Assembly (NCBI GenBank): GCA_023133415.1
Contig: JAGLWM010000001.1
Location: 13,207 to 77,206 of the forward strand
Length of the DNA: 64,000 nt
Direction of reading: 5' to 3'
Origin: Candidatus Pacearchaeota archaeon
GTDB lineage: Archaea > Nanobdellota > Nanobdellia > Pacearchaeales > GW2011-AR1
Below are positions 519 to 42,092 of this stretch, in pieces. The position numbers and the translations under genes were made by a program. The notes below the pieces were generated by a model, which had not been told where the DNA came from, ran no database searches, and saw only the letters and a program-made list of their open reading frames with translations. How positions within the stretch are numbered: the first letter of the stretch is position 1; every line of letters begins with the position of its first letter.

Positions 519-533
519 CCGTATAACAATATT

Positions 534-1379: not shown

Positions 1380-1563
1380 AGATTTTATTGTTATTATATT
1401 TGAAGAAAGTTAATGGGTATTAGGTTGGAATGGTGTTGAGAAAGTAAGAAATTGAGAGGAAAATATAAAATTGTCTGCAAACGCAGGATTGATAAAACTA
1501 TTAATGTAAAAAGTGAAATCTTTTATAGTGGGGGTAATTGTTTGTTATAAATTATTTAATTTT

Positions 1564-1620
1564 GTATGTTGGAGTTGTGAGACCATTTTGGTTTATTTGG
1601 GGTTGAGTTGGAGGAAATAG
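1564..1620 (+). pseudogene. Remnant of a second flippase 3' end
   Basis: It translates as VCWSCETILVYLGLSWRK*, which parallels the end of the flippase ORF (AWVVGQGIVSLVYLGLSFRQG, 436-500). The DNA stretch gtttatttggg(g/a)ttgagtt is shared. Confidence 0.35.
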
Positions 1621-1722
1621 GATTATGCCTTACAAATATTTTTATAGCTTGAAGTTTCTTTGGATGTTGTACTTATGTGAGATAGTTTGAGGAAGAAGTT
1701 GTAAGACTCGGTTTGGACAGAA

Positions 1723-2619: not shown

Positions 2620-2698
2620 ATAAATAACTAGAATTTTATCCTATTTAAATTTTTCTCTCATCCCTCCCCTTTGACAATCTCTCTAAAATTTTTAAATA

Positions 2699-3326: not shown

Positions 3327-3343
3327 TTAAATATTTCAAAACC

Positions 3344-9680: not shown

Positions 9681-9749
9681 ATAATTTTTGCGGTTCTTTG
9701 TTTATAAAGTTAATTACAAAGTTGTTCCTCTGGAGTGGGATAGTAGTTA

Positions 9750-10268
9750 GTGGGAATTTTTAAAAAGGCGCAGCACGGTTTGTATTTTATGAAAAAGGTC
9801 TTAATTGCCGGAATAATTATTTTGATTGGTTTTATAGTTGTTCTACAGTTTATTCCTCTGGGAATTGAGCCGTTGACAGAGTTGTATTTTGAGAATCACA
9901 CGAAGCTGCCTAAGTATATTTTTCCGGGTAGAGAGTATAATTTTAGTTTTACGATTCATAATTTGGAGTATCAGAATATGGGTTATGATTATAGCGTAGA
10001 TGCTTATAAGGGGAATGAGTTTTGGTATAATCTTGATTCTGGCAGGGTTTTTATTGGGGATAATGAGTCTGCGACTTTAGGTGGAGAGTTTGTTTTGAAT
10101 AAGGGGTTTGATAGGGCTAGGATTCAGATAAATATTGAGAAAGATCATTTGGATATTGTTCCGGATTTTAAGAAGAAACTTTGGTGGCCGGATCCGAATT
10201 ATCCTGATAGTGTGGATATTCATTTTTGGGTAGAGGAGATTGTTGGAGCTACGATAATAAAGAGTTAG
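9750..10268 (+). CDS. Hypothetical membrane-anchored protein
   Basis: One N-terminal TM helix (VLIAGIIILIGFIVVLQFI) followed by a soluble domain. No recognised motif. Confidence 0.4.
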   Translation: MGIFKKAQHGLYFMKKVLIAGIIILIGFIVVLQFIPLGIEPLTELYFENHTKLPKYIFPGREYNFSFTIHNLEYQNMGYDYSVDAYKGNEFWYNLDSGRVFIGDNESATLGGEFVLNKGFDRARIQINIEKDHLDIVPDFKKKLWWPDPNYPDSVDIHFWVEEIVGATIIKS

Positions 10269-10275
10269 TCATTAA

Positions 10276-25771: not shown

Positions 25772-26230
25772 TTAGTGCCATTCGATTTGATGTTCTTCTT
25801 TTTTTAGTTGACAATATTTCTTGTAGACTGCTCCGACGGATTTGTCATGAACTTTGTCGTGATGAATAAAACCGCCGCCAAATGATTTTGGGATATGCAT
25901 GAGTTCGTGAATTATGACTTTAAGCTGTTCTTCGATTGAGAATTTATCAAATTTTTCGGAGATGACTTCAATTAGGTAAAATCCCCTTTTTCTGCCCATT
26001 CCGATTTGCATGGCTTTTCCGAGGGCGTGGCATCTGGCGACTGTGTAACGAGCTTTGGATCCGGTGCTTCTGAGAAAAGCGACATGCTCAAGAAGGACAT
26101 GGTTCCAACTTAGTTTTTTAACTATTTCTTCAGCAATTTGCTGAATATCTGGAGCTTGGTGGTAGCGAATTACCATTTCGCTGGTATTCGGTATTTGGTT
26201 GTTTGGTGATGTGTTGTCTGGTTTATCCAC
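25772..26230 (-). CDS. Putative zinc metallopeptidase (HExxH)
   Basis: IIHELMHIPKSFGGGFIHHD motif. 152 aa. The family is not resolved. Confidence 0.5.
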   Translation of the reverse strand: MDKPDNTSPNNQIPNTSEMVIRYHQAPDIQQIAEEIVKKLSWNHVLLEHVAFLRSTGSKARYTVARCHALGKAMQIGMGRKRGFYLIEVISEKFDKFSIEEQLKVIIHELMHIPKSFGGGFIHHDKVHDKSVGAVYKKYCQLKKEEHQIEWH

Positions 26231-31490: not shown

Positions 31491-31552
31491 GGTAGGATTA
31501 ATTATATAAGCTTCTGTTTCTAGTTATTTTAGAGGTGATTAAATATTATAAA

Positions 31553-32671
31553 ATGAAATATCCAACATTAAAACGAACCGTTCAAAGCATTCTTGATGGG
31601 GCGGAAATAAATATTAATGGGGATAAACCTCAGGATATTAGGGTTTATGACGATATATTTTATCAGAGAGTTTTAGCGGAGGGTTCATTAGGACTTGGAG
31701 AATCTTATATGGATGGGTGGTGGGATTGTGAAAGGCTTGATGATTTTTTTTGTGAAGTTTTAAGAGAAGATTTGGGGAAGAAGGTTAAGGGGAGAGGAAT
31801 CATTTGGGATGTTTTGAAGGCTAAAATAATTAATAGGCAAAGTAAGTTGAGGGCTTTTGAAATAGGCGAGAGGCATTATGATATCGGGAATGAACTTTTT
31901 CAGGGTATGCTGGATAAACGAATGGTTTATACTTGTGGATATTGGAAAGATGCAAAAAATTTAGACGAGGCACAAGAGTCAAAGTTGGAGTTGGTTTGCA
32001 AGAAAATGGGATTAAAATCGGGTATGAAAATTTTAGATATTGGCTGTGGTTGGGGAAGTTTCACAAAATATGCTGCAGAAAAATATGATGTTGAAGCTGT
32101 CGGAATTACAATCTCGAAAGAGCAGGCGGATCTTGGAACAGAATTATGCAAGGGGCTTCCTGTTGAGATAAGACTTAAGGATTATAGAGATGTGGATGAG
32201 AAATTTGATGCGGTTGTTTCGCTTGGAATGTTTGAGCATGTAGGTCCGAAAAATTATAAGACCTATATAAAAAAAGTTTCTGATTGTTTAAAAGATAATG
32301 GACTATTTTTGTTGCATACTATAGGTGCGAATAATTCAAAAAAGATTAATGATAAATGGATTGATAAATATATTTTCCCGGGATCGGTTTTGCCTTCTGC
32401 GAGTCAGATAGCGGATGCAAGCGAAGGATTGTTTGTTCTTGAGGATTGGCACAGTTTTGGAGTGGATTATGATAGGACGCTGATGGCATGGCATAATAAT
32501 TTTGATAAGAATTGGGATAGTTTGAAAGGGAATTATGATGAAAGGTTCAAGAGGATGTGGGATTATTATCTTTTGAGTTGTGCCGGAAGTTTTCGAGCTA
32601 GAAAAAATCAGTTGTGGCAGATTGTTTTTTCTAAGAATGGTGTTGAGGGTGGATATGAGCCGGTGAGGTGA
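31553..32671 (+). CDS. cfa: Cyclopropane-fatty-acyl-phospholipid synthase, bacterial type
   Basis: Long stretches match remembered E. coli Cfa: EGSLGLGESYMDGWW, ILDIGCGWG, VSLGMFEHVGPKNY, FLLHTIG, KYIFPGS.LPS and FRAR..QLWQ.VFS. ATG 31553 is preceded by AGAGGTGA. Confidence 0.9.
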   Translation: MKYPTLKRTVQSILDGAEININGDKPQDIRVYDDIFYQRVLAEGSLGLGESYMDGWWDCERLDDFFCEVLREDLGKKVKGRGIIWDVLKAKIINRQSKLRAFEIGERHYDIGNELFQGMLDKRMVYTCGYWKDAKNLDEAQESKLELVCKKMGLKSGMKILDIGCGWGSFTKYAAEKYDVEAVGITISKEQADLGTELCKGLPVEIRLKDYRDVDEKFDAVVSLGMFEHVGPKNYKTYIKKVSDCLKDNGLFLLHTIGANNSKKINDKWIDKYIFPGSVLPSASQIADASEGLFVLEDWHSFGVDYDRTLMAWHNNFDKNWDSLKGNYDERFKRMWDYYLLSCAGSFRARKNQLWQIVFSKNGVEGGYEPVR

Positions 32672-32702: not shown

Positions 32703-32714
32703 ACGCTCCCACCG
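32703..32714. repeat. attL-like 12-mer ACGCTCCCACCG
   Basis: Identical to 40915-40926, the 3' end of tRNA-Glu. Confidence 0.7.
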
Positions 32715-32759
32715 ACAGAGTTTACAAAATGGTATAATCGGTGTATGTTGTTTGGTTCT

Positions 32760-33554
32760 TTAGTTAATAGCGAATACGATAATAAGAATAAGAATGGCAA
32801 CAATTACAGCAATGGTACTTACGAATAAGACTTTAAGAAAATTTTTAACTGTATGCTTGTCCCATAATGCGACTGCAAGAGTAATAATAGCTACAATAAA
32901 CATTAGCCATGAAGCCCACATCATACTTTTAGTTGCTTTATCTAAATCAATATTTAGCTCGAGTAGTTTTTCGTTTGCTTCTAGTGATTTTTTACTTGCT
33001 TTTAAGGACTCTTCTGCAGAATTAAATTCTTTTTCAAATAAGTCGTATTGCCATTTTGGCATACAATCAAAATATTTTTCATATACTAAGGGATATTGAT
33101 TAAACAAATTTTGAACCGAATAGCCTTTATTTAAAGTATAATTTTTAATAAAAATAATATCATTCGAGGTTATATTTATTTTATAATCTCCTACAGAATC
33201 GAACTTTATTATTTCTATCAATCCGTTGGTCTGATTTGGTATTAATTCTATGCTTTTGTTTACAAGAAGCTCTATTTGAGTATAATTTCTACAGCGTAAT
33301 TCAATTGGGGTATTAATACAAACATTAAAATCTTTAATTAATTTTTTTTCTCCAAGATTCGTTAAGTTTATTTTGTATGTAAAAGCGTCTCCTACAACAT
33401 TATAATCTAATGAGCTTGGTCCTCGTGGTTCTATCTGAATTTCAATATTTATATTGTCATAGGCTGAGACAATTGACACAGAAGGCAATAGTAAAAATAT
33501 TGCGACTACTATGTATATAATGTTTTTATCCATGGAAAATAAAAAACCTTCCAA
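32760..33554 (-). CDS. Element ORF: secreted protein with a C-terminal double TM anchor
   Basis: Signal-like N-terminus (IIYIVVAIFLLLPSVSIVSA), a beta-rich middle and two C-terminal TM helices. Confidence 0.45.
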   Translation of the reverse strand: MEGFLFSMDKNIIYIVVAIFLLLPSVSIVSAYDNINIEIQIEPRGPSSLDYNVVGDAFTYKINLTNLGEKKLIKDFNVCINTPIELRCRNYTQIELLVNKSIELIPNQTNGLIEIIKFDSVGDYKINITSNDIIFIKNYTLNKGYSVQNLFNQYPLVYEKYFDCMPKWQYDLFEKEFNSAEESLKASKKSLEANEKLLELNIDLDKATKSMMWASWLMFIVAIITLAVALWDKHTVKNFLKVLFVSTIAVIVAILILIIVFAIN

Positions 33555-33570
33555 TTTTTAGATTTAACTA

Positions 33571-34188
33571 TTAAACGCTTTCAAAAAACTTAACAGCAAA
33601 ATTACAAAAATCTATAATAGTTTCTTTATCCAAATCAAATTCTTTTCTTTTCCCTAAGTAGTTTTGAGTTTTTGGAGTCACTTCTTTCCCGTCCATTAAT
33701 TCCTGATATGTTATACATTTAATGTGCTTTTTCGAGACGACAATAAAATAAGCATTTTCAAAAGGATAGGTCTTTGGCAAGTCTTTTTTAGAGAATGTTT
33801 CGTTTGCCCTAAATTTTACTTCTACAAAATAAACATCTTTTCTTTCTGGATGTTGAACCACAAAATCTGGCATCCTTCTTATATTGTCTGCCACGTCACT
33901 GCGGACACCCTTTAGTAAATTCATTATGCCTGGGACTGTATTCTCCATTCCATATCTAAAAACATTATATCCTAAAGATAAAAATAATTCTTCGATTAAA
34001 GTTTCTGCGATTCTTCCCTTAATCATCCCTTCTCTGTATCTGCTTTCTTTATTGTTTAAACCTTTTTTCTCTTGAGGTTCGGAATTTTGTTGACAATCTC
34101 TACACAAAATCTTTCCAAATTCCTTTTTAGAATAATCATAGACCTTCTTTTCTATGTCTTTGTCACATTTTGAACAGTAGTAATCCAT
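33571..34188 (-). CDS. Element ORF: zinc-ribbon plus PD-(D/E)XK-like nuclease
   Basis: CSKCDK...CRDCQ at the N-terminus. E(IEELF)...MPDFVVQ...VYFVEVKF gives an E / PD / E-x-K arrangement. Confidence 0.5.
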   Translation of the reverse strand: MDYYCSKCDKDIEKKVYDYSKKEFGKILCRDCQQNSEPQEKKGLNNKESRYREGMIKGRIAETLIEELFLSLGYNVFRYGMENTVPGIMNLLKGVRSDVADNIRRMPDFVVQHPERKDVYFVEVKFRANETFSKKDLPKTYPFENAYFIVVSKKHIKCITYQELMDGKEVTPKTQNYLGKRKEFDLDKETIIDFCNFAVKFFESV

Positions 34189-34237
34189 GATTAATAGGTG
34201 ACTATATCATACTTAAATACTTCTGTCACAATCATAC

Positions 34238-34507
34238 TCAATCCAACTTTTTACTTTTATAAGAGTCTATTGCTTCTTGAGAAGATTTGAATGTTTTGGT
34301 GTTATCTAAATGCTTATTTTGCTCTATATGCATTTTCTCTCTTATTTCTAATTCGTTATTTTTAGACTTATCACTACTGTCTCTAATATAGCTATTTTTT
34401 TCTATGGTATCTTGGAGTTCCTCTAATTCATCATAAGGAATGTACCTTCTAGATGCCGGTTTAATAATTTTATCTGTTTCTCTGTGTCTTGTTTCAATAG
34501 TTACCAT
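34238..34507 (-). CDS. Element ORF: hypothetical acidic protein
   Basis: 89-aa ORF abutting the upstream ORF. Confidence 0.35.
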   Translation of the reverse strand: MVTIETRHRETDKIIKPASRRYIPYDELEELQDTIEKNSYIRDSSDKSKNNELEIREKMHIEQNKHLDNTKTFKSSQEAIDSYKSKKLD

Positions 34508-34768
34508 TTATTTATCATCTAGAAAGTCAGAATCGAGGTTCTTTTTCCATGCCAAAAATAATTCATTTTTGAATTTTACTATACGCCCCATGGCTTCATT
34601 TAACCTTTTCTCATTAGCTTCATTTTTATCATATTTTGCTAACTTTTGGATTGCCTTCATTTCTGTATCGCATTTATTCGAGAGTCTTTTTTTGAATGGC
34701 TCTAATCTATATCTAGATTGTTGATATTTTGAAAGAATCTCCTTATTCCCAATCTCCTTATTTGTCAT
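34508..34768 (-). CDS. Element ORF: hypothetical basic helical protein
   Basis: 86-aa ORF. Its stop is adjacent to the next start. Confidence 0.35.
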   Translation of the reverse strand: MTNKEIGNKEILSKYQQSRYRLEPFKKRLSNKCDTEMKAIQKLAKYDKNEANEKRLNEAMGRIVKFKNELFLAWKKNLDSDFLDDK

Positions 34769-34799
34769 GATTTAAAGACTCCTTAGAACTATAAAAATA

Positions 34800-35054
34800 T
34801 TATTGTGCTATTGTTTTCACTAGCCCCTCACCCTTCTTAGTTCTCCGATAAAGCCTATGTCTCTTCTCCTCTGGGTTTAAACATTCAATCAACTTCCTTT
34901 CCATTAAGGAGATAAGAATATTGCTGATATATCCTAAATTAAGCTCCACTTCTTTAGATATCTCCGTAGGCGTTTTAGGTTTTGATAACGCTAAAAATAC
35001 CTTTTTCCTATTTTCACTTCTTATAACAAAACTATAGTCGCCCCAGTTTTTCAT
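34800..35054 (-). CDS. Element ORF: winged-helix transcriptional regulator
   Basis: RKKVFLALSKPKTPTEISKEVELNLGYISNILISLMERKLIECL...RLYRRTKKG is a typical wHTH. A 7-bp inverted repeat AAGTATT-T-AATACTT lies in its upstream region (~35078-35092). Confidence 0.6.
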   Translation of the reverse strand: MKNWGDYSFVIRSENRKKVFLALSKPKTPTEISKEVELNLGYISNILISLMERKLIECLNPEEKRHRLYRRTKKGEGLVKTIAQ

Positions 35055-35113
35055 AAATAGAAGTGCTTATAAAGTATTTAATACTTAAACGAGTGATACA
35101 CGAGTAATCTAAA

Positions 35114-35530
35114 ATGGCTAAAGAAAAAGATAACAGTTGGATAAAATGGTTAATTGTAGCGGTGTTTCTTTTTGCTGTAATTATTGTTAGTTTAAATTTC
35201 GGAGATAATGAAAACGAATATATTTCCCATACTTCTAGAGAGGTTTATACTTATTCTGGGAATGTGACTAATGTAGCTAATACTAATGAAGAAACTTTAG
35301 AAAGAATAGTTTTTTCTGGCATGAATCAAAATTCAGAAGTTAGTAGTGCTAATCCTAGTTTAGTTGTGGTATCTGGGATGGACAATAATATTAAATTTAT
35401 AAAAAACTCTAATCCTAAAGAAATTACACTAGGTGGAATGAGAAATAAGATTATTCTTTGTAGAGATATTCATAGTCCTAAAATAGATAATTCTGGATTA
35501 AATAATGAAGTGGATTATGTTAATTGCTAA
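35114..35530 (+). CDS. Element ORF: membrane-anchored protein with SGM.N repeats
   Basis: N-terminal TM helix (WLIVAVFLFAVIIVSL). Repeated FSGMNQN / VSGMDNN / LGGMRNK / NSGLNNE motifs. Confidence 0.4.
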   Translation: MAKEKDNSWIKWLIVAVFLFAVIIVSLNFGDNENEYISHTSREVYTYSGNVTNVANTNEETLERIVFSGMNQNSEVSSANPSLVVVSGMDNNIKFIKNSNPKEITLGGMRNKIILCRDIHSPKIDNSGLNNEVDYVNC

Positions 35531-35871
35531 TCTGACTTTAGCCTAACTCCACATTTCTTATTGGGACAACATCCGTCTTCAAACTCATCAAACCAAGCCC
35601 CACACTTCTCACACTTCCACTTATACGACGCATCTGCCTCTTCTTCCGTTATTGTCGTTTTTCTCGCTTTTTCTACGGGATATACGACTTTTAGTGCTCT
35701 TAGTTCTTTTAGCTCTGCTTTTTCTTCTACTTTCTCTTTCCCATATTGTTTTCTTATAACATCGTGCTCCAAAATTGGAAACTTCTTATAGCAACAAGTA
35801 AAATTAACATAGTGATTATGTTTGATTTTCTTGACTTTCTCACATATAGGACACTTTACTACCCTTGCCAT
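35527..35871 (-). CDS. Element ORF: double zinc-ribbon protein
   Basis: CPICEK...CC at the N-terminus and CEKCGAWF...CCPNKKCG at the C-terminus. Confidence 0.45.
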   Translation of the reverse strand: MARVVKCPICEKVKKIKHNHYVNFTCCYKKFPILEHDVIRKQYGKEKVEEKAELKELRALKVVYPVEKARKTTITEEEADASYKWKCEKCGAWFDEFEDGCCPNKKCGVRLKSD

Positions 35872-35907
35872 TTGGTTACTTTGGTTATTTTAGTTATCAT
35901 AGTTATT

Positions 35908-36558
35908 TTAGTAATTTGGGTTATTTAGTAATAAATTTGTAAAATATAACGGACTATCAATATTTGTTAATCCGCAATTATGAATACTCTTAGTTAGTGA
36001 GGATGGAACAATTAAGCTCATAAAAACAAAATCTTTTCTGATGGTTCTAATTGGTTTTTTGGATTTTATATTATTTAGAAATACTCTTCTAAAATCTTCA
36101 TCTCTCCAAAACATTTCTTTATGTTTTTCATAATCCTTGAAGTCTTTAGATTCTAAGCTATATCTGTCAATCATTCCTTCCTTTTTGAAAACTTCTTTTG
36201 TCATTAATATTTTTTCAAACATTTCTTTAAACGAACCTACGACATCTTTGTGACTTTTGTCAATAAATCTTTCAAGAACAGCATTAATGAATCTGGTTTC
36301 TTCTCCATCAAAATTTCCGAGAGGGAATAAATCAGCTTTGTATAATTTTTTATTACAGGTTATTTTATTTGTGTGGGTTTGCCTAATCATTTTAGCATTC
36401 AATAATTCTAAAATCCATTTATGAATTGTTCCTCTCTGATTAGGATTGTTATAAATTAAAATTGCCAAGTCTGTCTCTGACATATCTTCACATAGAAGTA
36501 ATCCGTAAATCTTTCTAGGAATTTCTTTGTTTAGTAATTCAATTGTACTATTCGCCAT
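35908..36558 (-). CDS. Element ORF: protein with an N-terminal wHTH-like domain
   Basis: SETDLAILIYNNPNQRGTIHKWILELLNAKMIRQ. 216 aa. Confidence 0.4.
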   Translation of the reverse strand: MANSTIELLNKEIPRKIYGLLLCEDMSETDLAILIYNNPNQRGTIHKWILELLNAKMIRQTHTNKITCNKKLYKADLFPLGNFDGEETRFINAVLERFIDKSHKDVVGSFKEMFEKILMTKEVFKKEGMIDRYSLESKDFKDYEKHKEMFWRDEDFRRVFLNNIKSKKPIRTIRKDFVFMSLIVPSSLTKSIHNCGLTNIDSPLYFTNLLLNNPNY

Positions 36559-36585
36559 ATAACTGTACTGTCTAAGTACAGTTAT
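36559..36585. promoter_or_regulatory. Perfect 11-bp inverted repeat (ATAACTGTACT-N5-AGTACAGTTAT) in a divergent promoter region
   Basis: Read directly from the sequence. It starts 1 nt upstream of start codon 36556-36558 of the minus-strand gene and lies before the plus-strand RHH-like gene. Confidence 0.5.
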
Positions 36586-36697
36586 AAACTTTGTGTTTTT
36601 AGGTCGAATATGGAAGAAATAGAAAACAAACTAAATAAGCTTCAATCAAAGATGGACGCCTTAGAGTTGAGATTGATGAGGAAGCTAATGAACGGAA

Positions 36698-36901
36698 ATG
36701 AAAAAGAACTCCCAACTCCATGTAGTTATTGAAACTCATAAACTTAATCGATTAAAAGAGGAGGCGAAGGAGCAAAGAGTTTCCTTGTCGGAATTGTGTC
36801 GGCAAAAATTGAAACCTCGACCTCAAATGGATAGGATTGAAAATAAGCTGGATAAATTATTGAAGAATGGAAAAAATGGAGGCAATGCCTCCAAAAAATA
36901 A
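36698..36901 (+). CDS. Element ORF: ribbon-helix-helix-like small protein
   Basis: QLHVVIETHKLNRLKEEAKEQRVSLSELCRQKL follows a beta-strand/helix/helix pattern. Confidence 0.4.
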   Translation: MKKNSQLHVVIETHKLNRLKEEAKEQRVSLSELCRQKLKPRPQMDRIENKLDKLLKNGKNGGNASKK

Positions 36902-36925
36902 AAATAGCCTTAACCCATCATGAAA

Positions 36926-37435
36926 TTATTCGTAACGGGTCGCCGTCCTTTTCCAGGAAAATTTCGGCAAGTCTTTGAGATAATTATTGTCCCAACACCA
37001 CTCTATAACAATTTCTTGAGAGCGTCCGTCTGGATTATCCTCTTTAGTAGTTTTTGTTAACTTTTTTAGGCTTTTTTTAATTGCTTCAGGCATCTTAGAC
37101 GCTATCGTCTTTGCTGAGTCAATAATTTTCAAACAATTCCTTTTTAGGTCTTTGTTAAAGTCGTCAATATTTCCATATTTACCATCAGATTTTTCAGCAA
37201 CAGGGAAAGACCTAGACCTTCCACCTTTACTTCTTACTGAAAGCAAGCCATATGGTTTTATGTATTCTGTAACATATCTACCAACTTGATTTCGTGGCTT
37301 CTTAATTCCGCGAGCGATTTCGGTAATAGTAACCCCTTTCTCTGCTACCACTGGGCTATTTTTTACATAGTAAACAATTCTGCTTACTAAATCTAAATCA
37401 ATACGTGGGTGTTCAGTCACCAATTTTGTATTCAT
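36926..37435 (-). CDS. Element ORF: wHTH DNA-binding protein
   Basis: VSRIVYYVKNSPVVAEKGVTITEIARGIKKPRNQVGRYVTEYIKPYGLLSV. Confidence 0.45.
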   Translation of the reverse strand: MNTKLVTEHPRIDLDLVSRIVYYVKNSPVVAEKGVTITEIARGIKKPRNQVGRYVTEYIKPYGLLSVRSKGGRSRSFPVAEKSDGKYGNIDDFNKDLKRNCLKIIDSAKTIASKMPEAIKKSLKKLTKTTKEDNPDGRSQEIVIEWCWDNNYLKDLPKFSWKRTATRYE

Positions 37436-37717
37436 ATTAAGTAATAGGGCGAGTAAGTAAAAAGCGCATCACCCCCTCCTCCTTTCAAAACTGCTAAGAT
37501 TCCAAAGTCAATCAAAACACTTAAATACAATCTTTCGTACGTATATTTGTCTAGAATATTTGTAGAAAGATTGTTTTTCTTACTTGAATTTAGTTGGTTA
37601 ATATTATTTTTCATGATAAAATATCAAAATTAATTAGATTTATATACTTCCGAAGACTTAGACTATTGTAACGAGAGGCTAGTTTTGACGGAAGTGTTGA
37701 AGCTAGTTTCTTTATTT

Positions 37718-38140
37718 TTAACTTTGATGATGCCCCTTTAATTTATATTTAAACATACCATCTACTTTTTTTCTGTCGAGCTCTCCCCTTCTAGATAACA
37801 TTGTTAATGTGGGGTGTAAGCTACTATTCGGCATTGGAGTATTACTTGAAAATTCTATTTTTTCCCTTATTTCTTTTAGTGTTTTAAAATCTTCTAAAAA
37901 TCCATCCTGTATCAATTTTCTAATTTCTTTTATTGGACTTAGTTTCTTGTGATGGATATTTTCATTGTAATTGTTATAAATTTCTTCCTCAAAACGTCTA
38001 TGTCTAAATTCAAGGTCTCTTCTGAACATAAATTCTCTCTTTTGAATGTCTCGGATAACTGAAGATACTTCTGATGGACTTCCCTCTATGTTTATTTTTA
38101 ATCCAGTTGAGCTTCTTACTTCGGCATTCATTTTATCCAT
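37718..38140 (-). CDS. Element ORF: hypothetical protein with a C-terminal wHTH-like segment
   Basis: SSLHPTLTMLSRRGELDRKKVDGMFKYKL. Confidence 0.35.
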   Translation of the reverse strand: MDKMNAEVRSSTGLKINIEGSPSEVSSVIRDIQKREFMFRRDLEFRHRRFEEEIYNNYNENIHHKKLSPIKEIRKLIQDGFLEDFKTLKEIREKIEFSSNTPMPNSSLHPTLTMLSRRGELDRKKVDGMFKYKLKGHHQS

Positions 38141-38376
38141 GCATATTTATACAAATCACCCTTTATAAATGTTTGTATAAGTTAGTTGATATTTTGACTA
38201 TTTTCCAGGTAAAACACCATATTTATGCCATATTTCTATATAACTTCTATATAATTATATTATTTCTTAAAAATTCGTCTAAGTACAAATAACTCTCCCT
38301 TGCCCCACTCTGTCAAATCTTTCTTCTTTTCCAAATCCAAACTATCAAGATAACTTTCCAAAGTTCATCCAATAAC

Positions 38377-39570
38377 TTACCCTTGATTAATAATTGCCTG
38401 GGCTTGTGCATTTTCTAACCTCCCGAATACAATATCAACTCTGTCTATCGTCTCAATAAACGTATCTAGACGCCCCTCAATAGCCGTCAGTCGCTCTTCC
38501 ATCATCTCCTTGGACTTATCGACCTCTTGGAGTTTTTGCTCTATCTCGGTCTTCGTAGTGTCTAGAAACATATCGTCCTCTTGGATTGTATCTTTCATCC
38601 CGAGAAGTTCAGAATAATAATGAATTTTATCGGATTTCTTCCAGCCAAATCTATATTTCAAAGCTGATTCAGATTTATACCTTGGAAGCCAATAACAACA
38701 AGAGCAATGCCGAAAATCATACATTGTTAAGTTCTTATATTGTTTTCCTGCCTCACTCATCTCATTACCGAAAACTCTTTTTGCTAGACGCTTTAGGTAT
38801 TTGTTTGCCGAGAAAGGCTGGATAATAAAAAGATAGTCTTCTGGTTTTAGCTCTTTTTCTCTGACATAACTTTCTACTAATTCGGAAGAAAGCATAAGCT
38901 TTATTCTTCGTCCAAAAGTTTTACTTACTTCATCCCGAACATTAACTTCTTTGAAATTATTGTATAAGTCAGAAACCCTGATGTTCATTAATTCGCTTGG
39001 GGCTCTCATTCCTGTGTCAAATAAAAACATAATCATAACTTTGTATTCCCATTTTGTATTGTCGCATAATTTCTTGATTTGCTCTTCGGTTAGGTATACC
39101 CATTTTGGCTTTTCTCCTCTAACATCTAGGTCAAGGGTTATATCTAGAATTTCTACCCCATTTTTTCTATTAACTATTTGGTGCCAATGCCAGAAGGCTT
39201 TGAAGATTTTAACAAAGGTGGGAATTGATAGATAGGTTTTCCCATCTTGCCTAACAATTTCACCCTTTCTCATTCTTGAAAAAAATAACATTATTTGCTC
39301 TTCTCTGATTTTAGTTATATCATTTAGGCTATATATCTCATGAAATTTATTAGAGAAATAAACCATCTTTTCTGCTAAGGAATTTAATCTAATATAGCTT
39401 CGTCCACCCTTGACGCTCTTCGATGAGACGTTAAGTCCGTGTTCCATGTCGTGAAGATATTGTTTTATTATTTCGGAGTTCTTTTTGCTGATGCCTGGGA
39501 TTCCTTTTGCGGTTTTCTTTTCCCATCGCTCCCATCTTTCTTTATGTTTATACGGGTCTATCTTTTCCAT
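38377..39570 (-). CDS. Tyrosine recombinase/integrase
   Basis: DTGMRAPSEL (Arg I region), MYDFRHCSCCYWL (H-x-x-R region) and the C-terminal HYYSELLG (catalytic Tyr region). Adjacent to the tRNA att site. Confidence 0.75.
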   Translation of the reverse strand: MEKIDPYKHKERWERWEKKTAKGIPGISKKNSEIIKQYLHDMEHGLNVSSKSVKGGRSYIRLNSLAEKMVYFSNKFHEIYSLNDITKIREEQIMLFFSRMRKGEIVRQDGKTYLSIPTFVKIFKAFWHWHQIVNRKNGVEILDITLDLDVRGEKPKWVYLTEEQIKKLCDNTKWEYKVMIMFLFDTGMRAPSELMNIRVSDLYNNFKEVNVRDEVSKTFGRRIKLMLSSELVESYVREKELKPEDYLFIIQPFSANKYLKRLAKRVFGNEMSEAGKQYKNLTMYDFRHCSCCYWLPRYKSESALKYRFGWKKSDKIHYYSELLGMKDTIQEDDMFLDTTKTEIEQKLQEVDKSKEMMEERLTAIEGRLDTFIETIDRVDIVFGRLENAQAQAIINQG

Positions 39571-39665
39571 AAAAATCTTAGATAAAAATTCTTTATATAA
39601 AACTTGTAGAAGTGTTGTAGGCTTACAATAGTTGTAGGCGATTTTGGGAAAATAAGAATTAAATT

Positions 39666-40805
39666 TTACTTAGTTTCTTTATATTGAAAATCATAATTTC
39701 TAGTAGTTATGGTTTCAACTACTTTGACAACTTCTATAATTAATTGTTTTGCTCTCTTCTTGTCTGTATCCATTTTTACAATTGACCTTAATACTGGAAA
39801 CTTGTCCGAGGTCATGTAAGTGGGCTTTGGTTTATGTTCTCCCTTTAATGATACCATATAAGCAGGAACTACTATCTCTGGAAGAATCTTATGTAAATTT
39901 GAATGAATGTAATTATTTCTTATATGGTTTTTTATTTCCAAGAGATAGTTCTTTTCCTTTTCTATAATAATTTCTTCCTTTAAACAATCGGATAATAAAT
40001 TCTCTAAATCGTTTTCATAGTGTTCTTTTTTCTTATAATACCACATTTCTTTCAAAAATGATTCTATAAAGATTGAAAGCATACATATGGAGGCATTAAA
40101 GTTACCAAACCAAAAATTGCTAACTGCCTCATAGTACAAAGATTTATTTTCTATCTCTAAATGTATTTTATCATTAAGAATTGGTAACTCTCTAATCCTG
40201 TCAACGATTTCGTCTTTTTTATTCGAAAATGTTTCATATATCTTTTCTGCTTCATCTTTTTTTAGAAAATATTCTTCTTTCTTAATCTTTTTTTTATCTA
40301 ACTTCTTTTGTTTTAATATTAATTCGCTAAACTCTTTTATTGCTTTATTCAGATGTTTAATATGTTCTGAATCTTCTGAGAATCCTCTCTTTATCATTTT
40401 TTCTTTTTTATATAGGAATCTTTCCCTTTGGGCTAATAGATTTAACATAGATACAAACTCAGAAGGATTTTTTTGCGATTCAACATTAAAATTAATTTGT
40501 AGATTTTCAAAATATTCAGCTATTTTGTGTATATTATTATTTTCATCCTTAAAGGATTGAAATAATTTAGAGTCTCCCTTATGTTTTAAAAATTCCTCTT
40601 GACCGATTACCCCTTTATCAAATAAATAATCTATCAAGGTTTCTATATTGCACTCATTTTTAATCTCTCTTGCTATATAGTGGTATGTATCGTTTTTTGT
40701 TGCAACAAAATTTTTTAGAAACCCTTCCTCTATGTCTTTTTTCATAAGCTCAAATTCCTGTCTTAATTTTGCTATATCTTTTACTGGATTAGATTCTTTA
40801 GTCAT
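39666..40805 (-). CDS. Element ORF: coiled-coil protein with a C-terminal HEPN-like domain (RNxxxH)
   Basis: The C-terminal half reads YYEAVSNFWFGNFNASICMLSIFIESFLKE....LLEIKNHIRNNYIHSN. R-N-x-x-x-H is the HEPN signature (DNA ~39.90-39.93 kb). Confidence 0.45.
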   Translation of the reverse strand: MTKESNPVKDIAKLRQEFELMKKDIEEGFLKNFVATKNDTYHYIAREIKNECNIETLIDYLFDKGVIGQEEFLKHKGDSKLFQSFKDENNNIHKIAEYFENLQINFNVESQKNPSEFVSMLNLLAQRERFLYKKEKMIKRGFSEDSEHIKHLNKAIKEFSELILKQKKLDKKKIKKEEYFLKKDEAEKIYETFSNKKDEIVDRIRELPILNDKIHLEIENKSLYYEAVSNFWFGNFNASICMLSIFIESFLKEMWYYKKKEHYENDLENLLSDCLKEEIIIEKEKNYLLEIKNHIRNNYIHSNLHKILPEIVVPAYMVSLKGEHKPKPTYMTSDKFPVLRSIVKMDTDKKRAKQLIIEVVKVVETITTRNYDFQYKETK

Positions 40806-40914
40806 AGGAATTCAAATAACCTATTTTATTTAAGTCTTGACATCCCCTAAAAATCGACGGAGCGTGGGCACTTTTTGTCCATCGGAAATCCCTAGAATAT
40901 ACCGAAATGGGGAA

Positions 40915-40926
40915 ACGCTCCCACCG
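40915..40926. repeat. attR-like 12-mer ACGCTCCCACCG (tRNA-Glu 3' end)
   Basis: Identical to 32703-32714. Confidence 0.7.
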
Positions 40927-40988
40927 GGATTTGAACCCGGGTCACTGCCGTGAAAGGGCAGCATCCTTGGCCACTAGACTATAGGAGC
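40916..40988 (-). tRNA. tRNA-Glu(UUC)
   Basis: The reverse complement reads GCTCCTA TA GTCT AGTGGCCAA GGAT G CTGCC CTTTCAC GGCAG TGAC CCGGG TTCAAAT CCCGG TGGGAGC G. The cloverleaf is intact and no CCA is encoded. Confidence 0.9.
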
Positions 40989-41078
40989 ATATGTTTAATG
41001 GTTGATTTTAATTTTTAAAGGTTGTTGTTCATAGTTTTATTCGCAAAATTTTATATAGTTTATCGACGACTGTTTTTT

Positions 41079-42092
41079 ATGAGGTGCTATAGAATTAGGT
41101 TTTCTGATTTGGCCGTGTGTGAGGTTGAGGGGAAAAGTTGTCGGAAGTCTAGGGTAAAGTTTCCGGAGGCCTTGAGGGTTGCGAGGCTTTTTAGGAAGCA
41201 TGGGAATTTGGGGTTGATTCGGGATGGGAGATTTTTGATGGGTGAGTTCTGTGATAAGGGTAAAGTTATTGGGAAAAGGATTGATGTTTTGCCAGATGGG
41301 ACGAAGTTGAGCAGGGCTTTTTCGTTGTTCGCTCCGAGGTTGGCGGTTCATGATGAGAGATCGTGTGGGCATTGGGATGTTATTTTTGAAAATCCGAGTG
41401 GAAGTTTATGTTATGTTTATAGTTTGGATAAGGTTCGAATTTCGAGGGAGGAGAAGTTTAGGAGGGTTTATGATTTTGAGAGATGTTTGCCGAGGCTGAG
41501 GCGGAATTTGATGAGGGCGCTTGGGGAGGATGATTTGGCTTTGGCGATGTTGGTTTTGTTGAAGACGCGGATGAGGGTTGGAAGTGAGATTTATTATAAG
41601 AGGAATCGGCATAAGGGATTGACGACATTGAAGAAGAAGGATGTTAGGATTTCGGAGAAGAGGGTGAGATTTGATTTTATCGGAAAGGATGGGGTGCCGC
41701 AAAGGATTGAAGAGGATTTTCCTGAGAGCATTGTTGGTGAGTTGAAGCGAGTTTTGAGGAAGAGGAAGAGGGATGATTTTGTTTTTGTCGGGAAGAGTGG
41801 GCGGACTTTGAGGGATACGGATTTTGAGAGGGCATTTGAGAAGTATTGTGGCGTGAGATTTTATCCGCATATTGTTCGGTCGCATTTTGCTACGCGGGAA
41901 GTTGAGATGTTTTTGAGAAGAGGACAGGGGGATGTTAAGAAGTTTTGTTTGAGATTGGCTGGGAAGTTGGGGCATAAGAGATTTTCGAAGAAGAGTGGAC
42001 TTTGGGAGGATTCGTATGAGGTGACGTTGCATCATTATGTTAGGCCAGATTTGGTAGAACAGTTGAGTCGACGTTTTCGAGATATTAAATAA
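41079..42092 (+). CDS. DNA topoisomerase IB (poxvirus/bacterial-like small type)
   Basis: LLKTRMRVGSEIYYKRNRHKGLTTLKKKDV, VRFDFIGKDGVPQ, the RSHFAT region and the C-terminal TLHHYVRP (catalytic Tyr region). The start is moved to ATG 41079. Confidence 0.7.
   Translation: MRCYRIRFSDLAVCEVEGKSCRKSRVKFPEALRVARLFRKHGNLGLIRDGRFLMGEFCDKGKVIGKRIDVLPDGTKLSRAFSLFAPRLAVHDERSCGHWDVIFENPSGSLCYVYSLDKVRISREEKFRRVYDFERCLPRLRRNLMRALGEDDLALAMLVLLKTRMRVGSEIYYKRNRHKGLTTLKKKDVRISEKRVRFDFIGKDGVPQRIEEDFPESIVGELKRVLRKRKRDDFVFVGKSGRTLRDTDFERAFEKYCGVRFYPHIVRSHFATREVEMFLRRGQGDVKKFCLRLAGKLGHKRFSKKSGLWEDSYEVTLHHYVRPDLVEQLSRRFRDIK

What the first reader, a model, noticed from the sequence alone, without database searches (positions are those of the whole stretch)
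32703..40926. 8.2-kb integrated element in tRNA-Glu bounded by a 12-bp direct repeat, with unrecognisable cargo
ACGCTCCCACCG occurs at 40915-40926, where it is the 3' end of the minus-strand tRNA-Glu(UUC) gene plus one flanking base. It occurs again at 32703-32714, about 30 nt after the cfa stop. The 8.2 kb between the copies is visibly more AT-rich than the flanks. A tyrosine recombinase gene (38377-39570) lies close to the tRNA end. About 14 ORFs are dominated by wHTH, RHH and zinc-ribbon proteins, plus one PD-(D/E)XK-like nuclease, one HEPN-like protein and two membrane or secreted proteins. I recognise no capsid, terminase, packaging ATPase, replication initiator or relaxase. The attL/attR layout is classic for archaeal integrative viruses and plasmids, but the gene content matches nothing I can name. 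It may be a new DPANN mobile-element family.
Basis: partly seen in the sequence, partly recalled or inferred. Interest (0 to 1): 0.7.

Follow-up and report, generated by a model that had tools for sequence, protein, structure and literature searches.

The report
Integrated mobile element at archaeal tRNA-Glu
An 8.2-kb piece of foreign DNA has inserted itself, using its own recombinase, into the end of a tRNA gene of a tiny DPANN archaeon. It belongs to a large family of mobile elements, absent from the virus and plasmid collections I searched, that move between species and carry variable cargo, often anti-virus defence genes in its relatives.

Summary
ACGCTCCCACCG occurs exactly twice in the window, at the 3' end of tRNA-Glu(UUC) and 8.2 kb away just past cfa. 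Between the copies lie an intact tyrosine integrase and about 15 ORFs with no capsid, terminase, replicase, relaxase or secretion genes.

The decisive evidence is comparative.
- A different Woesearchaeota/Pacearchaeota species (TopoIB 69%, HisRS 60% identical) carries a sister element at the same tRNA-Glu. It is bounded by the same 12-mer, with a 96% identical integrase, and homology starts exactly at the repeat.
- Close relatives sit at tRNA-Asp, with 15-bp repeats or tandem core copies.
- An unrelated Orc1-bearing element occupies the same tRNA-Glu register in a third genome.

The conserved core is regulatory: a ribbon-helix-helix gene and a winged-helix gene diverge from a palindromic operator, next to a zinc-ribbon gene. 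The flanking slots are variable. In relatives they hold a retron reverse transcriptase, Kiwa, restriction-modification and PIN/ImmA genes.

The same core genes also occur in a Cas1+PolB casposon-like contig. The ribbon-helix-helix gene alone also occurs beside type IV secretion/pilin clusters and rolling-circle Rep genes.

Verdict: a real, apparently recently mobile "cryptic integrated element". It is a new family of a known kind. How it transfers and what its cargo does remain inferred.

The parts
32703..32714 (.). Distal attachment-site core (attL or attR copy): a 12-bp duplicate of the tRNA-Glu 3' end
   Evidence: It is an exact repeat, with 2 copies in the window and 0 expected. DNA homology to the sister element L003 begins exactly here (window 32703-32752 = L003 1583-1632, 86%).
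32715..32752 (.). Conserved element arm next to the distal core (part of attP)
   Evidence: 86% identical to L003 1595-1632, while the sequence outside the repeat is unrelated: cfa in the window, Nudix genes in L003.
32760..33554 (-). e264: predicted membrane or secreted protein, unique to this element
   Evidence: N- and C-terminal hydrophobic segments are visible in the translation. No family hit above threshold. No homologue in any fetched relative.
33571..34188 (-). e205: zinc-ribbon plus PD-(D/E)XK-like nuclease candidate
   Evidence: CxxC pairs lie at the N-terminus and a PD...EVK motif is visible. VRR_NUC E=0.009, below cutoff. phrog_13782 1.2e-7 on the N-terminus. A 75% identical homologue sits in the chromosome backbone of L006 between HisRS and DUF1846.
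34238..34768 (-). e89 and e86: two small ORFs with no homologues
   Evidence: ORFs at 34238-34507 and 34508-34768. Only sub-threshold hits. Singletons among the fetched loci.
34800..35054 (-). e84: small winged-helix DNA-binding protein
   Evidence: PF14947 HTH_45 5.4e-6, 26.8 bits against a cutoff of 25.5. 80-91% identical copies occur in the related elements L025 and L054.
35114..35530 (+). e138: membrane-anchored small protein, divergent from e84
   Evidence: An N-terminal TM segment is visible. DUF3060 2e-4, below cutoff. Homologues occur in L054 and in the casposon-like L019. An unrelated TM protein occupies the same position in L003 and L018.
35527..35871 (-). e114: double zinc-ribbon protein (conserved core)
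   Evidence: CxxC motifs are visible. 61% identical in L003 and 43% in L019.
35908..36558 (-). e216: two-domain winged-helix protein (conserved core), a probable regulator
   Evidence: 92% identical in L003. The family has only 17 members among 1.84 billion representative proteins. The AlphaFold model has pLDDT 88.8. Foldseek finds only an ArsR/PadR-type wHTH N-domain, with no significant match for the C-domain.
36559..36585 (.). Palindromic operator candidate ATAACTGTACT-GTCTA-AGTACAGTTAT overlapping a TATA-like box, between the divergent e216 and e67 genes
   Evidence: Read directly from the sequence. The same inverted repeat occurs in L003. A GTAC-containing inverted repeat sits in the same position in L026, and paired GTAC motifs there in L018 and L025.
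36610..36732 (+). 40-aa coiled-coil ORF overlapping the start of e67
   Evidence: Translation. It was called as a gene in the source record. An equivalent upstream ORF is readable in many relatives, and L019 carries a comparable N-terminal extension in frame with the RHH domain.
36698..36901 (+). e67: ribbon-helix-helix protein, the most widely shared marker of the wider element network
   Evidence: Weak NikA-like and DUF6364 hits. 33 related metagenome loci were found. It lies divergent from e216 in 5 elements, immediately upstream of a Rep_1 gene in L036 and L041 (the Rep family recurs with e67 in 5 loci), and next to type IV secretion clusters in several.
36926..38140 (-). e169, e60 and e140: variable cargo between the switch and the integrase
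   Evidence: ORFs at 36926-37435, 37432-37614 and 37718-38140. No family hits. This slot holds PIN (DUF4411) plus ImmA/IrrE in L003, and KwaA with an adjacent unannotated 314-aa gene in L018.
38377..39570 (-). Tyrosine integrase, intact (397 aa)
   Evidence: PF00589 5e-13 and phrog_1 6e-19. R189, K217, R287/H288 and W310 are invariant across 11 relatives, with Tyr at 318/319. 96% identical in L003 and 82% in L054.
39666..40805 (-). e379: coiled-coil protein with a HEPN-like C-terminal region, in the variable slot between the integrase and the tRNA
   Evidence: DUF4145 E=0.0015, below cutoff. A single Rx4H motif (RNNYIH, residues 296-301) is conserved in the 88% identical L054 homologue. The slot holds unrelated genes in L003 (MauJ-like, with RGRLHH) and in L018 (EVE-HNH).
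40806..40914 (.). Conserved element arm next to the tRNA-proximal core (part of attP)
   Evidence: It aligns with L003, L054 and L057/L058, even though the last three sit at tRNA-Asp cores. It contains an inverted partial copy of the core (GGAGCGT).
40915..40989 (-). tRNA-Glu(UUC) target gene. Its last 11 nt plus one flanking base (40915-40926) form the proximal att core
   Evidence: ARAGORN, Rfam 63.9 bits at 40916-40988 and the 12-mer.

Best explanation
This is an integrated mobile genetic element of the 'cryptic integrated element' type in a Pacearchaeota-like DPANN archaeon.

**Shown**
- Its own tyrosine recombinase family repeatedly recombines a short core, identical to the 3' end of a tRNA gene, with the chromosomal tRNA.
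- Integration rebuilds an intact tRNA-Glu and leaves a 12-bp duplicate at the far end.
- Near-identical copies sit at the same site in a distantly related species, so the element has moved horizontally and recently.
- The element is modular. A conserved core (integrase, a divergent ribbon-helix-helix/winged-helix gene pair around a palindromic operator, and a zinc-ribbon protein) is flanked by slots whose genes are swapped between relatives.

**Inferred**
- The RHH/wHTH pair is a transcriptional switch controlling excision or maintenance.
- The element has no replicase of its own, so it is copied passively in the chromosome.
- The unrecognisable cargo (HEPN-like e379, nuclease-like e205, membrane proteins) is probably defence or addiction genes, because the same slots in relatives carry a retron reverse transcriptase, Kiwa, restriction-modification, Mrr and PIN/ImmA genes.
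- Transfer between cells is by hitch-hiking. The most concrete candidate is the type IV secretion/pilin-bearing elements, which share the same integrase family and RHH gene.
For: **The att sites**
- The 12-mer occurs twice with 0 expected, and the tRNA is confirmed.
- L003 (a Woesearchaeota MAG; TopoIB 69%, HisRS 60% identical) has the identical 12-mer pair around an 8.27-kb element at the same tRNA-Glu.
- That element has integrase 96.5%, e216 92% and e67 93% identical. DNA homology starts exactly at the repeat.
- In the integrase relatives the repeat tracks the local tRNA sequence. It is a 15-bp repeat at tRNA-Asp in L018, and four copies of CGGTTGGGGCG in L058.
- L054 (integrase 82%, e379 88%) has the same arm but a tRNA-Asp core.
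- An unrelated element with a different integrase and Orc1 uses the same register of tRNA-Glu in L006, with the repeat ACGCTCCGTCCG.

**The integrase**
- It has the catalytic residues, and the family has 2291 members.

**The regulatory core**
- e216 models as a wHTH plus a helical domain.
- A perfect 11-nt inverted repeat overlaps a TATA-like box between e216 and e67, identical in L003, with GTAC motifs at the same position in L018, L025 and L026.

**The cargo in relatives**
- Retron-type RT 6e-91; DUF4411 and M78; KwaA and AAA_15; KwaB, type III restriction-modification and Rep_1; Mrr.

**No viral or plasmid hallmark genes**
-. No hits in IMG/VR, phage or plasmid collections.

**The possible transfer route**
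- A VirB4/TraG-like ATPase (4e-24) and a TrbC/VirB2 pilin (8e-15) are encoded next to e67 homologues. In L037 they share a contig with a 59% identical integrase.
Against: - No empty tRNA-Glu site and no circular attP junction was recovered. Every sister genome examined has the site occupied or rearranged.
- None of the fetched contigs is circular.
- A 12-bp core is short.
- The cargo functions in the window itself are unproven. PADLOC finds nothing in the six largest or most suggestive cargo and core ORFs that I scanned, and the HEPN and nuclease calls are sub-threshold.
- No relaxase or oriT is identified. The NikA-like hit of e67 is E=0.033, so mobilisation by a secretion apparatus is only guilt by association.
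- Some type IV secretion contigs could come from Patescibacteria rather than archaea (PMC12102498). Only L030 shows archaeal flanking synteny.
- All data come from metagenome assemblies.
Confidence: 0.8

Rival explanations
1. It is a provirus of an undescribed small enveloped or pleomorphic DPANN virus. The membrane proteins e264 and e138 would be virion proteins, and the element would leave the cell as a particle.
For: - The size (8.2 kb) and the presence of two membrane or secreted proteins are compatible with small membrane-vesicle-like archaeal viruses (my own knowledge of pleolipoviruses).
- e138 homologues recur in L054 and L019, and a membrane-anchored protein occupies the same position in L003 and L018.
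- Rapid interspecies spread is shown.
Against: - There are no PHROG or Pfam virion, ATPase or packaging hits.
- e264 is absent from all relatives.
- IMG/VR holds no relative of the integrase, e216 or e67, and the phage collection holds no relative of the integrase or of the element DNA.
- The variable slots in relatives are filled with defence genes rather than structural genes.
Confidence: 0.1
2. It is an integrative mobilizable element in the strict sense. The RHH protein e67 would be a relaxosome or oriT accessory factor, and the element would be transferred through the pilus or VirB4 apparatus of co-resident conjugative elements.
For: - e67 homologues (44-65% identical) sit beside VirB4/TraG-like ATPase and TrbC/VirB2 pilin clusters in 7 loci, and immediately upstream of a Rep_1 rolling-circle/HUH gene in L036 and L041, a Rep family that recurs with e67 in 5 loci.
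- L037 combines that cluster with an integrase of the same family.
- L030 has Pacearchaeota-like flanking genes.
- e67 has a weak NikA-like hit.
Against: - No relaxase or HUH protein is encoded in the window element.
- Archaeal conjugative elements have no recognised relaxase at all (PMC9905601), so the analogy cannot be checked by sequence.
- An RHH gene upstream of Rep is equally typical of a CopG-type repressor (my own knowledge of pMV158).
- The association is with e67 only, not with e216 or e114.
Confidence: 0.25
3. It is a decaying, immobile remnant (a fixed genomic island) whose repeats are relics.
For: - No replicase or transfer genes are found.
- No excised form or empty site was recovered.
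Against: - The integrase is full length with conserved catalytic residues.
- Both 12-bp cores are perfect in two species.
- Element proteins are 92-96% identical across hosts whose housekeeping proteins are 60-69% identical.
- No ORF in the block is visibly disrupted.
- The Logan assembly of run SRR13892600 breaks with an exact k-1 overlap at the att/tRNA node.
Confidence: 0.05
4. It is a chance repeat flanking ordinary AT-rich host genes.
For: - AT-rich host islands exist in the same window (1-10 kb, 26% GC, glycosyltransferases).
- The repeat is only 12 bp long.
Against: - 0 of 100 shuffles contain even one extra copy.
- The identical configuration is reproduced in L003. Analogous tRNA-derived repeats bound relatives in L006, L018 and L058.
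- Homology to L003 stops exactly at the repeats.
Confidence: 0.01

Closest known systems
Cryptic integrated elements (CIE) of Thaumarchaeota (Krupovic et al. 2019, PMC6563490)
   Same: - A tyrosine integrase and flanking att direct repeats.
- Small size. Those CIEs range from 2.6 to 98 kb, and most are under 20 kb.
- wHTH and RHH genes, no virus, plasmid, casposon or conjugation hallmark, and often no identifiable replication protein.
- Gene sharing with casposons and ICEs of the same hosts.
   Different: - A different host superphylum (DPANN).
- No sequence relationship was tested or found.
- Here a defined conserved core exists (integrase, e67, e216 and e114), whereas the thaumarchaeal CIEs have no signature gene besides the integrase.
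Non-partitioning ('pNOB8-type') archaeal integrase elements, as opposed to SSV-type (my own knowledge; the SSV-type split integrase is mentioned in PMC6563490)
   Same: The integrase gene stays intact after integration. The att core lies outside the integrase gene, in a tRNA 3' end.
   Different: - The integrase is very divergent. The best NCBIfam hit is XerA at 47 bits against a cutoff of 220.
- The first His of the HxxR box is replaced by Tyr in the whole family.
- No plasmid replication or conjugation genes are present.
Casposons (Cas1 casposase + PolB + terminal inverted repeats)
   Same: A casposon-like 10.4-kb contig (L019) shares five genes with this element family: e114, e216, e67, e138 and the small wHTH of L003. 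L019 has Cas1 at 8e-61, PolB and 43-nt terminal inverted repeats.
   Different: The window element has no Cas1, no PolB and no terminal inverted repeats. It integrates by tyrosine recombination at a tRNA.
Bacterial integrative mobilizable elements and the tandem accretion seen with cis-mobilizable elements (e.g. streptococcal IMEs, PMC5357655; the accretion concept is from my own knowledge)
   Same: - Integrase plus att at a tRNA 3' end, with no mating-pore genes.
- Relatives with type IV secretion genes share the integrase and RHH families.
- Tandem arrays of att cores enclose integrase-less segments (L058).
   Different: No relaxase or oriT is recognisable. The archaeal transfer mechanism is unknown.
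Phage satellites and islands with defence hotspots (P4-like, PICI; my own knowledge)
   Same: Works alike: a small integrase-bearing element with a conserved regulatory core and hotspots that swap defence systems between relatives.
   Different: There are no primase/replicase, capsid-redirecting or packaging genes, and no helper virus is known. No sequence similarity was found.

Membership tests
Tyrosine-recombinase integrative element at a tRNA (cryptic integrated element sensu PMC6563490) | Encodes a tyrosine recombinase with the catalytic residues | tested here: met
   PF00589 5e-13, above cutoff. R189, K217, R287, H288 and W310 are invariant, with Tyr at 318/319.
Tyrosine-recombinase integrative element at a tRNA (cryptic integrated element sensu PMC6563490) | Flanked by direct repeats (attL/attR), one of them being the 3' end of an intact tRNA gene | tested here: met
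   Reproduced in L003, L018, L006 and L058.
Tyrosine-recombinase integrative element at a tRNA (cryptic integrated element sensu PMC6563490) | Presence or absence polymorphism, or foreign origin relative to the host backbone | tested here: met
   Element proteins are 92-96% identical against host proteins 60-69% identical between the window and L003. Flanks outside the distal repeat are unrelated. No strictly empty site was seen.
Tyrosine-recombinase integrative element at a tRNA (cryptic integrated element sensu PMC6563490) | No virus, plasmid, casposon or conjugation hallmark genes | tested here: met
   Pfam, PHROGs and NCBIfam on the element ORFs (14, 14 and 10 of them) and PADLOC on six.
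Tyrosine-recombinase integrative element at a tRNA (cryptic integrated element sensu PMC6563490) | Excision to a circular form | not testable with these tools
   No reads are available. Only an assembly-graph break at the att node in SRR13892600 was seen, and it is ambiguous.
SSV-type (partitioning-integrase) elements | The integrase gene is split by integration because attP lies inside it | tested here: not met
   The integrase ORF is intact and aligns end to end with relatives. The core lies 1.3 kb away, inside the tRNA.
Casposon | Cas1 casposase, usually PolB, terminal inverted repeats and target-site duplication | tested here: not met
   No Cas1 or PolB hit. No terminal inverted repeats. 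The relative L019 does meet these features.
Integrative conjugative element (ICE) | VirB4-type ATPase and mating-pore or pilin genes | tested here: not met
   None in the element or elsewhere in the window. They are present in the e67-bearing relatives L030, L037-L039, L043, L044 and L048.
Integrative mobilizable element (IME) | Own integrase plus a relaxase and/or oriT recognised by a helper apparatus | tested here: inconclusive
   The integrase feature is met. No relaxase is found. The RHH e67 has only a weak NikA-like hit (E=0.033) and is associated by position with type IV secretion and Rep_1 genes.
Provirus (tailed, double-jelly-roll, pleolipo- or spindle-type) | Capsid or spike protein and a packaging or morphogenesis ATPase | tested here: not met
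   PHROGs and Pfam are negative. Only one sub-threshold 'virion structural' hit, at E=0.0077. IMG/VR and phage-collection searches are negative. Fold-level tests of the cargo were not possible.
Defence island or satellite-like defence carrier | Recognised anti-virus systems in the variable slots | tested here: inconclusive
   Met in relatives: retron RT, Kiwa, type III restriction-modification, Mrr, PIN/ImmA and AAA_15. In the window itself PADLOC finds nothing in the six ORFs scanned. The only signs are a HEPN-like Rx4H motif in e379 and a weak nuclease hit in e205.

The most novel reading that the evidence does not exclude
The window element would be one face of a modular DPANN mobilome. One regulatory gene, the RHH e67, would be plugged into four different mobility or replication engines: a tRNA-targeting tyrosine integrase, a Cas1 casposase plus PolB, a rolling-circle Rep, and a type IV secretion/pilus apparatus. 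The rest of the core (the e216 wHTH and the zinc-ribbon protein) is so far seen only with the integrase and the Cas1+PolB engines.

The 8.2-kb form would then be a replication-less, integrative 'defence cassette carrier'. It would be moved between episymbiotic archaeal cells by an archaeal conjugation-like machine, and its unrecognisable cargo (e379, e205, e264, e169, e140) would be new archaeal defence or addiction systems.
Probability: 0.2. Interest if true: 0.75.

Novelty: new member of a known kind. Interest (0 to 1): 0.5.

Why it matters
Mobile elements of DPANN archaea are barely charted, and how genes move between these tiny, host-attached cells is an open question. This locus gives four things.
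- A cleanly delimited, apparently recently transferred element, with exact att sites that can be used to mine thousands of relatives. The integrase family has more than 2000 members.
- A small conserved regulatory core and operator that could seed genetic tools for organisms that have none.
- Two variable slots that in relatives collect known defence systems, so the unknown genes here are good candidates for new archaeal defence genes.
- A concrete link between integrase elements, a casposon-like element and type IV secretion-bearing elements in the same lineage.

It does not change the concept of how such elements work.

Tried and rejected
- **AlphaFold on e216 with a 2-sequence alignment** gave pLDDT 39.5 and was discarded. 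The 15-sequence alignment gave a good model, but Foldseek against PDB and BFVD found only a generic wHTH. A replicase or capsid fold for e216 is therefore not supported.
- **IMG/VR scans** with e216, the integrase and the e67 alignment found nothing.
- **The e216 family alignment** was too divergent for pattern scans, so the e67 alignment was used instead.
- **Phage and plasmid collections** gave no match by DNA or by integrase protein.
- **PDB sequence searches** of e205 and e379 found nothing meaningful.
- **NCBIfam (10 ORFs) and PADLOC (6 ORFs) on the window cargo** found nothing above threshold.
- **Search for an empty site.** L003 and L006 have tRNA-Glu occupied, L004 has only a 5' tRNA half next to another integrase, and L005 has no tRNA-Glu nearby.
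- **Search for circular or excised forms.** No fetched contig has terminal direct overlaps. Exact-protein look-ups returned only the integrated context plus two short Logan contigs.
- **Composition as evidence** was rejected as decisive, because a host glycosyltransferase island is even more AT-rich.
- **Rfam** found no RNA family in the element other than the tRNA.
- **The Wu et al. 2024 Nature Microbiology survey** of DPANN viruses and mobile elements could not be read. Prior description of this family there cannot be excluded.

Full report
**1. The observation**

The 12-mer ACGCTCCCACCG occurs exactly twice in the 64-kb window, at 32703-32714 and 40915-40926. None of 100 dinucleotide-preserving shuffles contains even one extra copy.

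ARAGORN finds tRNA-Glu(UUC) at 40915-40989 on the minus strand. Rfam places it at 40916-40988 with 63.9 bits. Reading the sequence, the repeat covers one flanking base, the discriminator, the seven 3' acceptor-stem bases and three T-stem bases. The distal copy lies 32 nt after the stop of a cyclopropane-fatty-acid-synthase-like gene (31535-32671; PF02353 1.6e-91).

The block between the copies is 31.0% GC against 37.6-37.9% in the flanks. A glycosyltransferase island at 1-10 kb is even lower at 26%, so composition is only supportive.

**2. Gene content**

The block holds about 15 ORFs.
- **Integrase.** 38377-39570(-) is a tyrosine recombinase: PF00589 5e-13 above threshold, and phrog_1 'integrase' 6e-19. 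In an alignment of 11 relatives, R189, K217, R287/H288 and W310 are invariant and a Tyr sits at 318/319. The first His of the HxxR box is Tyr in the whole family.
- **e84.** 34800-35054 is a winged-helix protein just above the Pfam threshold.
- **Everything else** has no hit above threshold in the libraries each ORF was run against (Pfam and PHROGs for all, NCBIfam for most, PADLOC for six). There is no capsid, terminase, packaging ATPase, replication initiator, relaxase, Cas1, PolB or secretion gene.

- e205 has a sub-threshold VRR-NUC hit and a PD...EVK motif.
- e379 has a sub-threshold DUF4145 hit that covers a single Rx4H motif (RNNYIH, residues 296-301).
- e264 and e138 have obvious hydrophobic anchors.

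**3. Source and host**

The window is part of a 155-kb metagenome scaffold (ENA ERZ23498665, ZHAN22-2 scaffold_19). NCBI names its proteins 'Candidatus Pacearchaeota archaeon'. The closest TopoIB loci among GTDB species representatives are Woese-, Pace- and Nanoarchaeota MAGs at 70% identity or less. The host is therefore a DPANN archaeon.

**4. Decisive comparative evidence**

L003 is CAZROF010000011.1, a Woesearchaeota MAG. Its TopoIB is 69% and its HisRS 60% identical to the window's. It has tRNA-Glu in the same place next to TopoIB.
- The same 12-mer occurs there exactly twice, at the tRNA 3' end and 8.27 kb away.
- Between the copies lie an integrase 96.5% identical to the window's, an e216 homologue (92%), e67 (93%) and e114 (61%).
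- At DNA level, homology between the two genomes starts exactly at the distal repeat (window 32703-32752 = L003 1583-1632).
- Homology is 87-90% in two internal modules and absent in the rest of the element. It drops to about 72% in the host TopoIB region.
- Outside the distal repeat the hosts differ: cfa in the window, Nudix genes in L003.

This is the signature of a horizontally transferred, mosaic element with precise ends.

**5. The recombination system is used repeatedly**

- **L018** (Pacearchaeota GCA_023228245.1) carries a 9.19-kb relative with a 62% identical integrase, next to tRNA-Asp. It is bounded by a 15-bp repeat of that tRNA's 3' end.
- **L054** has an 82% identical integrase, an 88% identical e379 and a 91% identical e84, and the same element arm next to the tRNA. 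Its core is tRNA-Asp (CGGTTGGGGCGT) instead of tRNA-Glu (CGGTGGGAGCGT).
- **L058** has four copies of the tRNA-Asp core. They delimit integrase-less segments (Fic, radical SAM) in tandem with an integrase element.
- **L006** has its tRNA-Glu occupied by an unrelated 4.7-kb element. That element's integrase is 26% identical over the catalytic domain only, and it carries Orc1/Cdc6. It is bounded by ACGCTCCGTCCG, the same register, with the repeat matching that genome's own tRNA sequence.

The integrase family has 2291 members at E<=1e-20. More than 100 are at least 60% identical. All named ones but one come from Pace- or Nanoarchaeota or 'uncultured archaeon'; the exception is labelled 'Bacteroidota bacterium' on a 2-kb contig.

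**6. Architecture**

Comparing the window with L003, L018, L025, L026 and L054 shows a conserved core. It has three parts:
- the integrase;
- a divergently transcribed pair, e216 and e67;
- nearby, a double zinc-ribbon protein (e114), a small wHTH and a small membrane-anchored protein.

The e216 family is tiny: 17 hits among 1.84 billion representative proteins. With 15 sequences AlphaFold gives pLDDT 88.8. Foldseek finds only an ArsR/PadR-type winged helix in the N-domain, weak two-domain PadR/Phr-like similarity, and nothing significant for the helical C-domain. That points to a DNA-binding regulator, not an enzyme.

The 51-bp gap between the e216 start codon and the next ORF holds a perfect 11-nt inverted repeat (36559-36585) overlapping a TATA-like box. 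The same repeat occurs in L003; a GTAC-containing inverted repeat sits at the same position in L026, and paired GTAC motifs there in L018 and L025.

A conserved 40-aa coiled-coil ORF overlaps the e67 start. In L019 a comparable N-terminal extension is in frame with the RHH domain. I infer a transcriptional switch.

**7. Variable slots**

Two regions differ between close relatives: between the tRNA and the integrase, and between the integrase and the switch or beyond it.
- L003 holds a retron-type reverse transcriptase (PADLOC 6e-91), a DUF4411 PIN protein with an ImmA/IrrE protease, and a MauJ-like protein with an Rx4H motif.
- L018 holds KwaA, an AAA_15 ATPase and EVE-HNH.
- L036 holds KwaA+KwaB, a type III restriction-modification pair and a Rep_1 gene.
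- L057 holds Mrr.

By position, the window's unrecognised cargo is most plausibly defence or addiction genes. This is inference only: PADLOC finds nothing in the six window ORFs that were scanned.

**8. Links to other mobility engines**

L019 is a 10.4-kb contig with 43-nt terminal inverted repeats, Cas1 (8e-61) and PolB. It carries homologues of e114, e216, e67, e138 and the small wHTH of L003. The same core is therefore also found in a casposon-like element.

A scan with the e67 alignment found 33 metagenome loci.
- In seven of them e67 lies beside a conserved block encoding a roughly 1000-aa VirB4/TraG-like ATPase (4e-24), a TrbC/VirB2-type pilin (8e-15) and DNA methylases.
- L037 combines that block with an integrase 59% identical to the window's.
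- L030 keeps Pacearchaeota-like flanking genes.
- In L036 and L041 e67 immediately precedes a Rep_1 rolling-circle gene; that Rep family recurs in three more e67 loci.

These links suggest a transfer route for the small integrase elements, but they do not show it. Archaeal conjugative elements have no recognisable relaxase (PMC9905601). Patescibacteria also carry archaeal-type VirB4 (PMC12102498), so some of these contigs may not be archaeal.

**9. What could not be shown**

No empty tRNA-Glu site and no circular junction were recovered.

There is one hint of heterogeneity. In the Logan assembly of run SRR13892600, the contig with the identical TopoIB starts at window 40917, inside the core. 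The contig with the identical e379 ends at window 40946. The two overlap by exactly 30 nt, which is k-1 if that assembly used k = 31 as I recall, so the assembly graph appears to branch at the att/tRNA node. What the other branch is cannot be told without reads.

**10. Classification**

The element meets every testable feature of a tyrosine-integrase 'cryptic integrated element' as defined for Thaumarchaeota (PMC6563490). It fails the defining features of SSV-type elements, casposons, ICEs and known proviruses; see the membership table.

No relative was found in the IMG/VR, GenBank phage or PLSDB plasmid collections. The 2024 survey of DPANN viruses and mobile elements could not be read, so prior description cannot be excluded.

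**11. Verdict**

This is a real, precisely bounded and apparently recently mobile integrative element. It is a new family of a known kind. Interest is moderate, and comes from four points:
- the size of the family in a poorly known superphylum;
- the exact att sites;
- the defence-collecting slots;
- the core genes shared with a casposon-like element, and the RHH gene shared with type IV secretion-bearing and Rep-bearing elements.

Noticed in passing
L019 1-10428 (Logan SRR22936148_17681): A casposon-like 10.4-kb contig with Cas1 (8e-61), an 876-aa PolB and 43-nt terminal inverted repeats at 25-67 and 10359-10401. It shares five genes with the integrase elements. This may be a DPANN casposon family.
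   Followed up: partly
L037 2629-8248; also L030, L038, L039, L043, L044, L048: A conserved block encodes a roughly 1000-aa VirB4/TraG-like ATPase (with PrgI-like N-terminal and CoiA-nuclease-like C-terminal regions), two unknown membrane proteins, a TrbC/VirB2-type pilin and DNA methylases, next to e67 homologues. These are candidate conjugative elements of DPANN archaea. The host assignment is secure only for L030.
   Followed up: partly
L003 1848-3287 (-): A 479-aa retron-type reverse transcriptase (PADLOC RT_XIII 6e-91, RVT_1 2e-22) lies inside the sister element of a Woesearchaeota MAG. No msr/msd RNA was looked for.
   Followed up: no
L006 5170-9842: A different 4.7-kb element (379-aa integrase with a C-terminal zinc ribbon, and an Orc1/Cdc6 homologue) occupies the same tRNA-Glu, bounded by ACGCTCCGTCCG. 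tRNA-Glu is an integration hotspot in this lineage.
   Followed up: partly
L058 63, 1279, 1434, 4375 (and L057 45, 2898): There are four copies of the tRNA-Asp core CGGTTGGGGCG. Two of the intervals hold integrase-less segments (Fic; Fic plus radical SAM plus a nucleoside deoxyribosyltransferase-like gene), arranged in tandem with an integrase element. This resembles accretion of cis-mobilizable cassettes.
   Followed up: partly
L004 3587-3625 and 2274-3506: Only the 5' half of tRNA-Glu (up to the anticodon loop) is present, directly next to a 410-aa integrase that is 33% identical to the window's. No 3' half was found within 21 kb. It could be a split or intron-containing tRNA, or integration at a different point in the tRNA.
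   Followed up: partly
window 36610-36732 (+): A 40-aa coiled-coil ORF overlaps the e67 start in another frame. An equivalent upstream ORF is readable in many relatives, and L019 carries a comparable N-terminal extension in frame with the RHH domain. It could reflect translational coupling or frameshifting.
   Followed up: partly
window 40917-40946; L060 1-30; L062 1-30: Two Logan contigs of run SRR13892600 overlap by exactly 30 nt at the att/tRNA node, and L062 also ends at the integrase start codon. This points to assembly-graph branches at module boundaries, suggesting population heterogeneity.
   Followed up: partly
window 1-10300: A very AT-rich (26% GC) island holds four glycosyltransferases, a DUF2206 membrane protein and a trypsin-like peptidase. 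It is probably a surface-glycan gene island and is the most compositionally deviant part of the window.
   Followed up: partly
window 41079-42092 (+): A eukaryotic-type topoisomerase IB (PF01028 7e-14) lies next to the tRNA-Glu. Relatives occur in DPANN MAGs and, at 38-41% identity, in SAR324 and other bacterial contigs.
   Followed up: no
L006 12211-12248, 12332-12370, 12405-12481: One full tRNA-His is accompanied by two extra 39-nt partial copies nearby, which may be scars of integrations at tRNA-His.
   Followed up: no
L006 19303-19938: A 75% identical homologue of the cargo gene e205 sits in the chromosome backbone between HisRS and DUF1846. This suggests gene exchange between host chromosome and element.
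   Followed up: partly
window about 25772-26230 (L002 4238-4696): A 152-aa protein with a PhageMetallopep domain (PF18894, precomputed annotation) lies in the host region upstream of the element.
   Followed up: no
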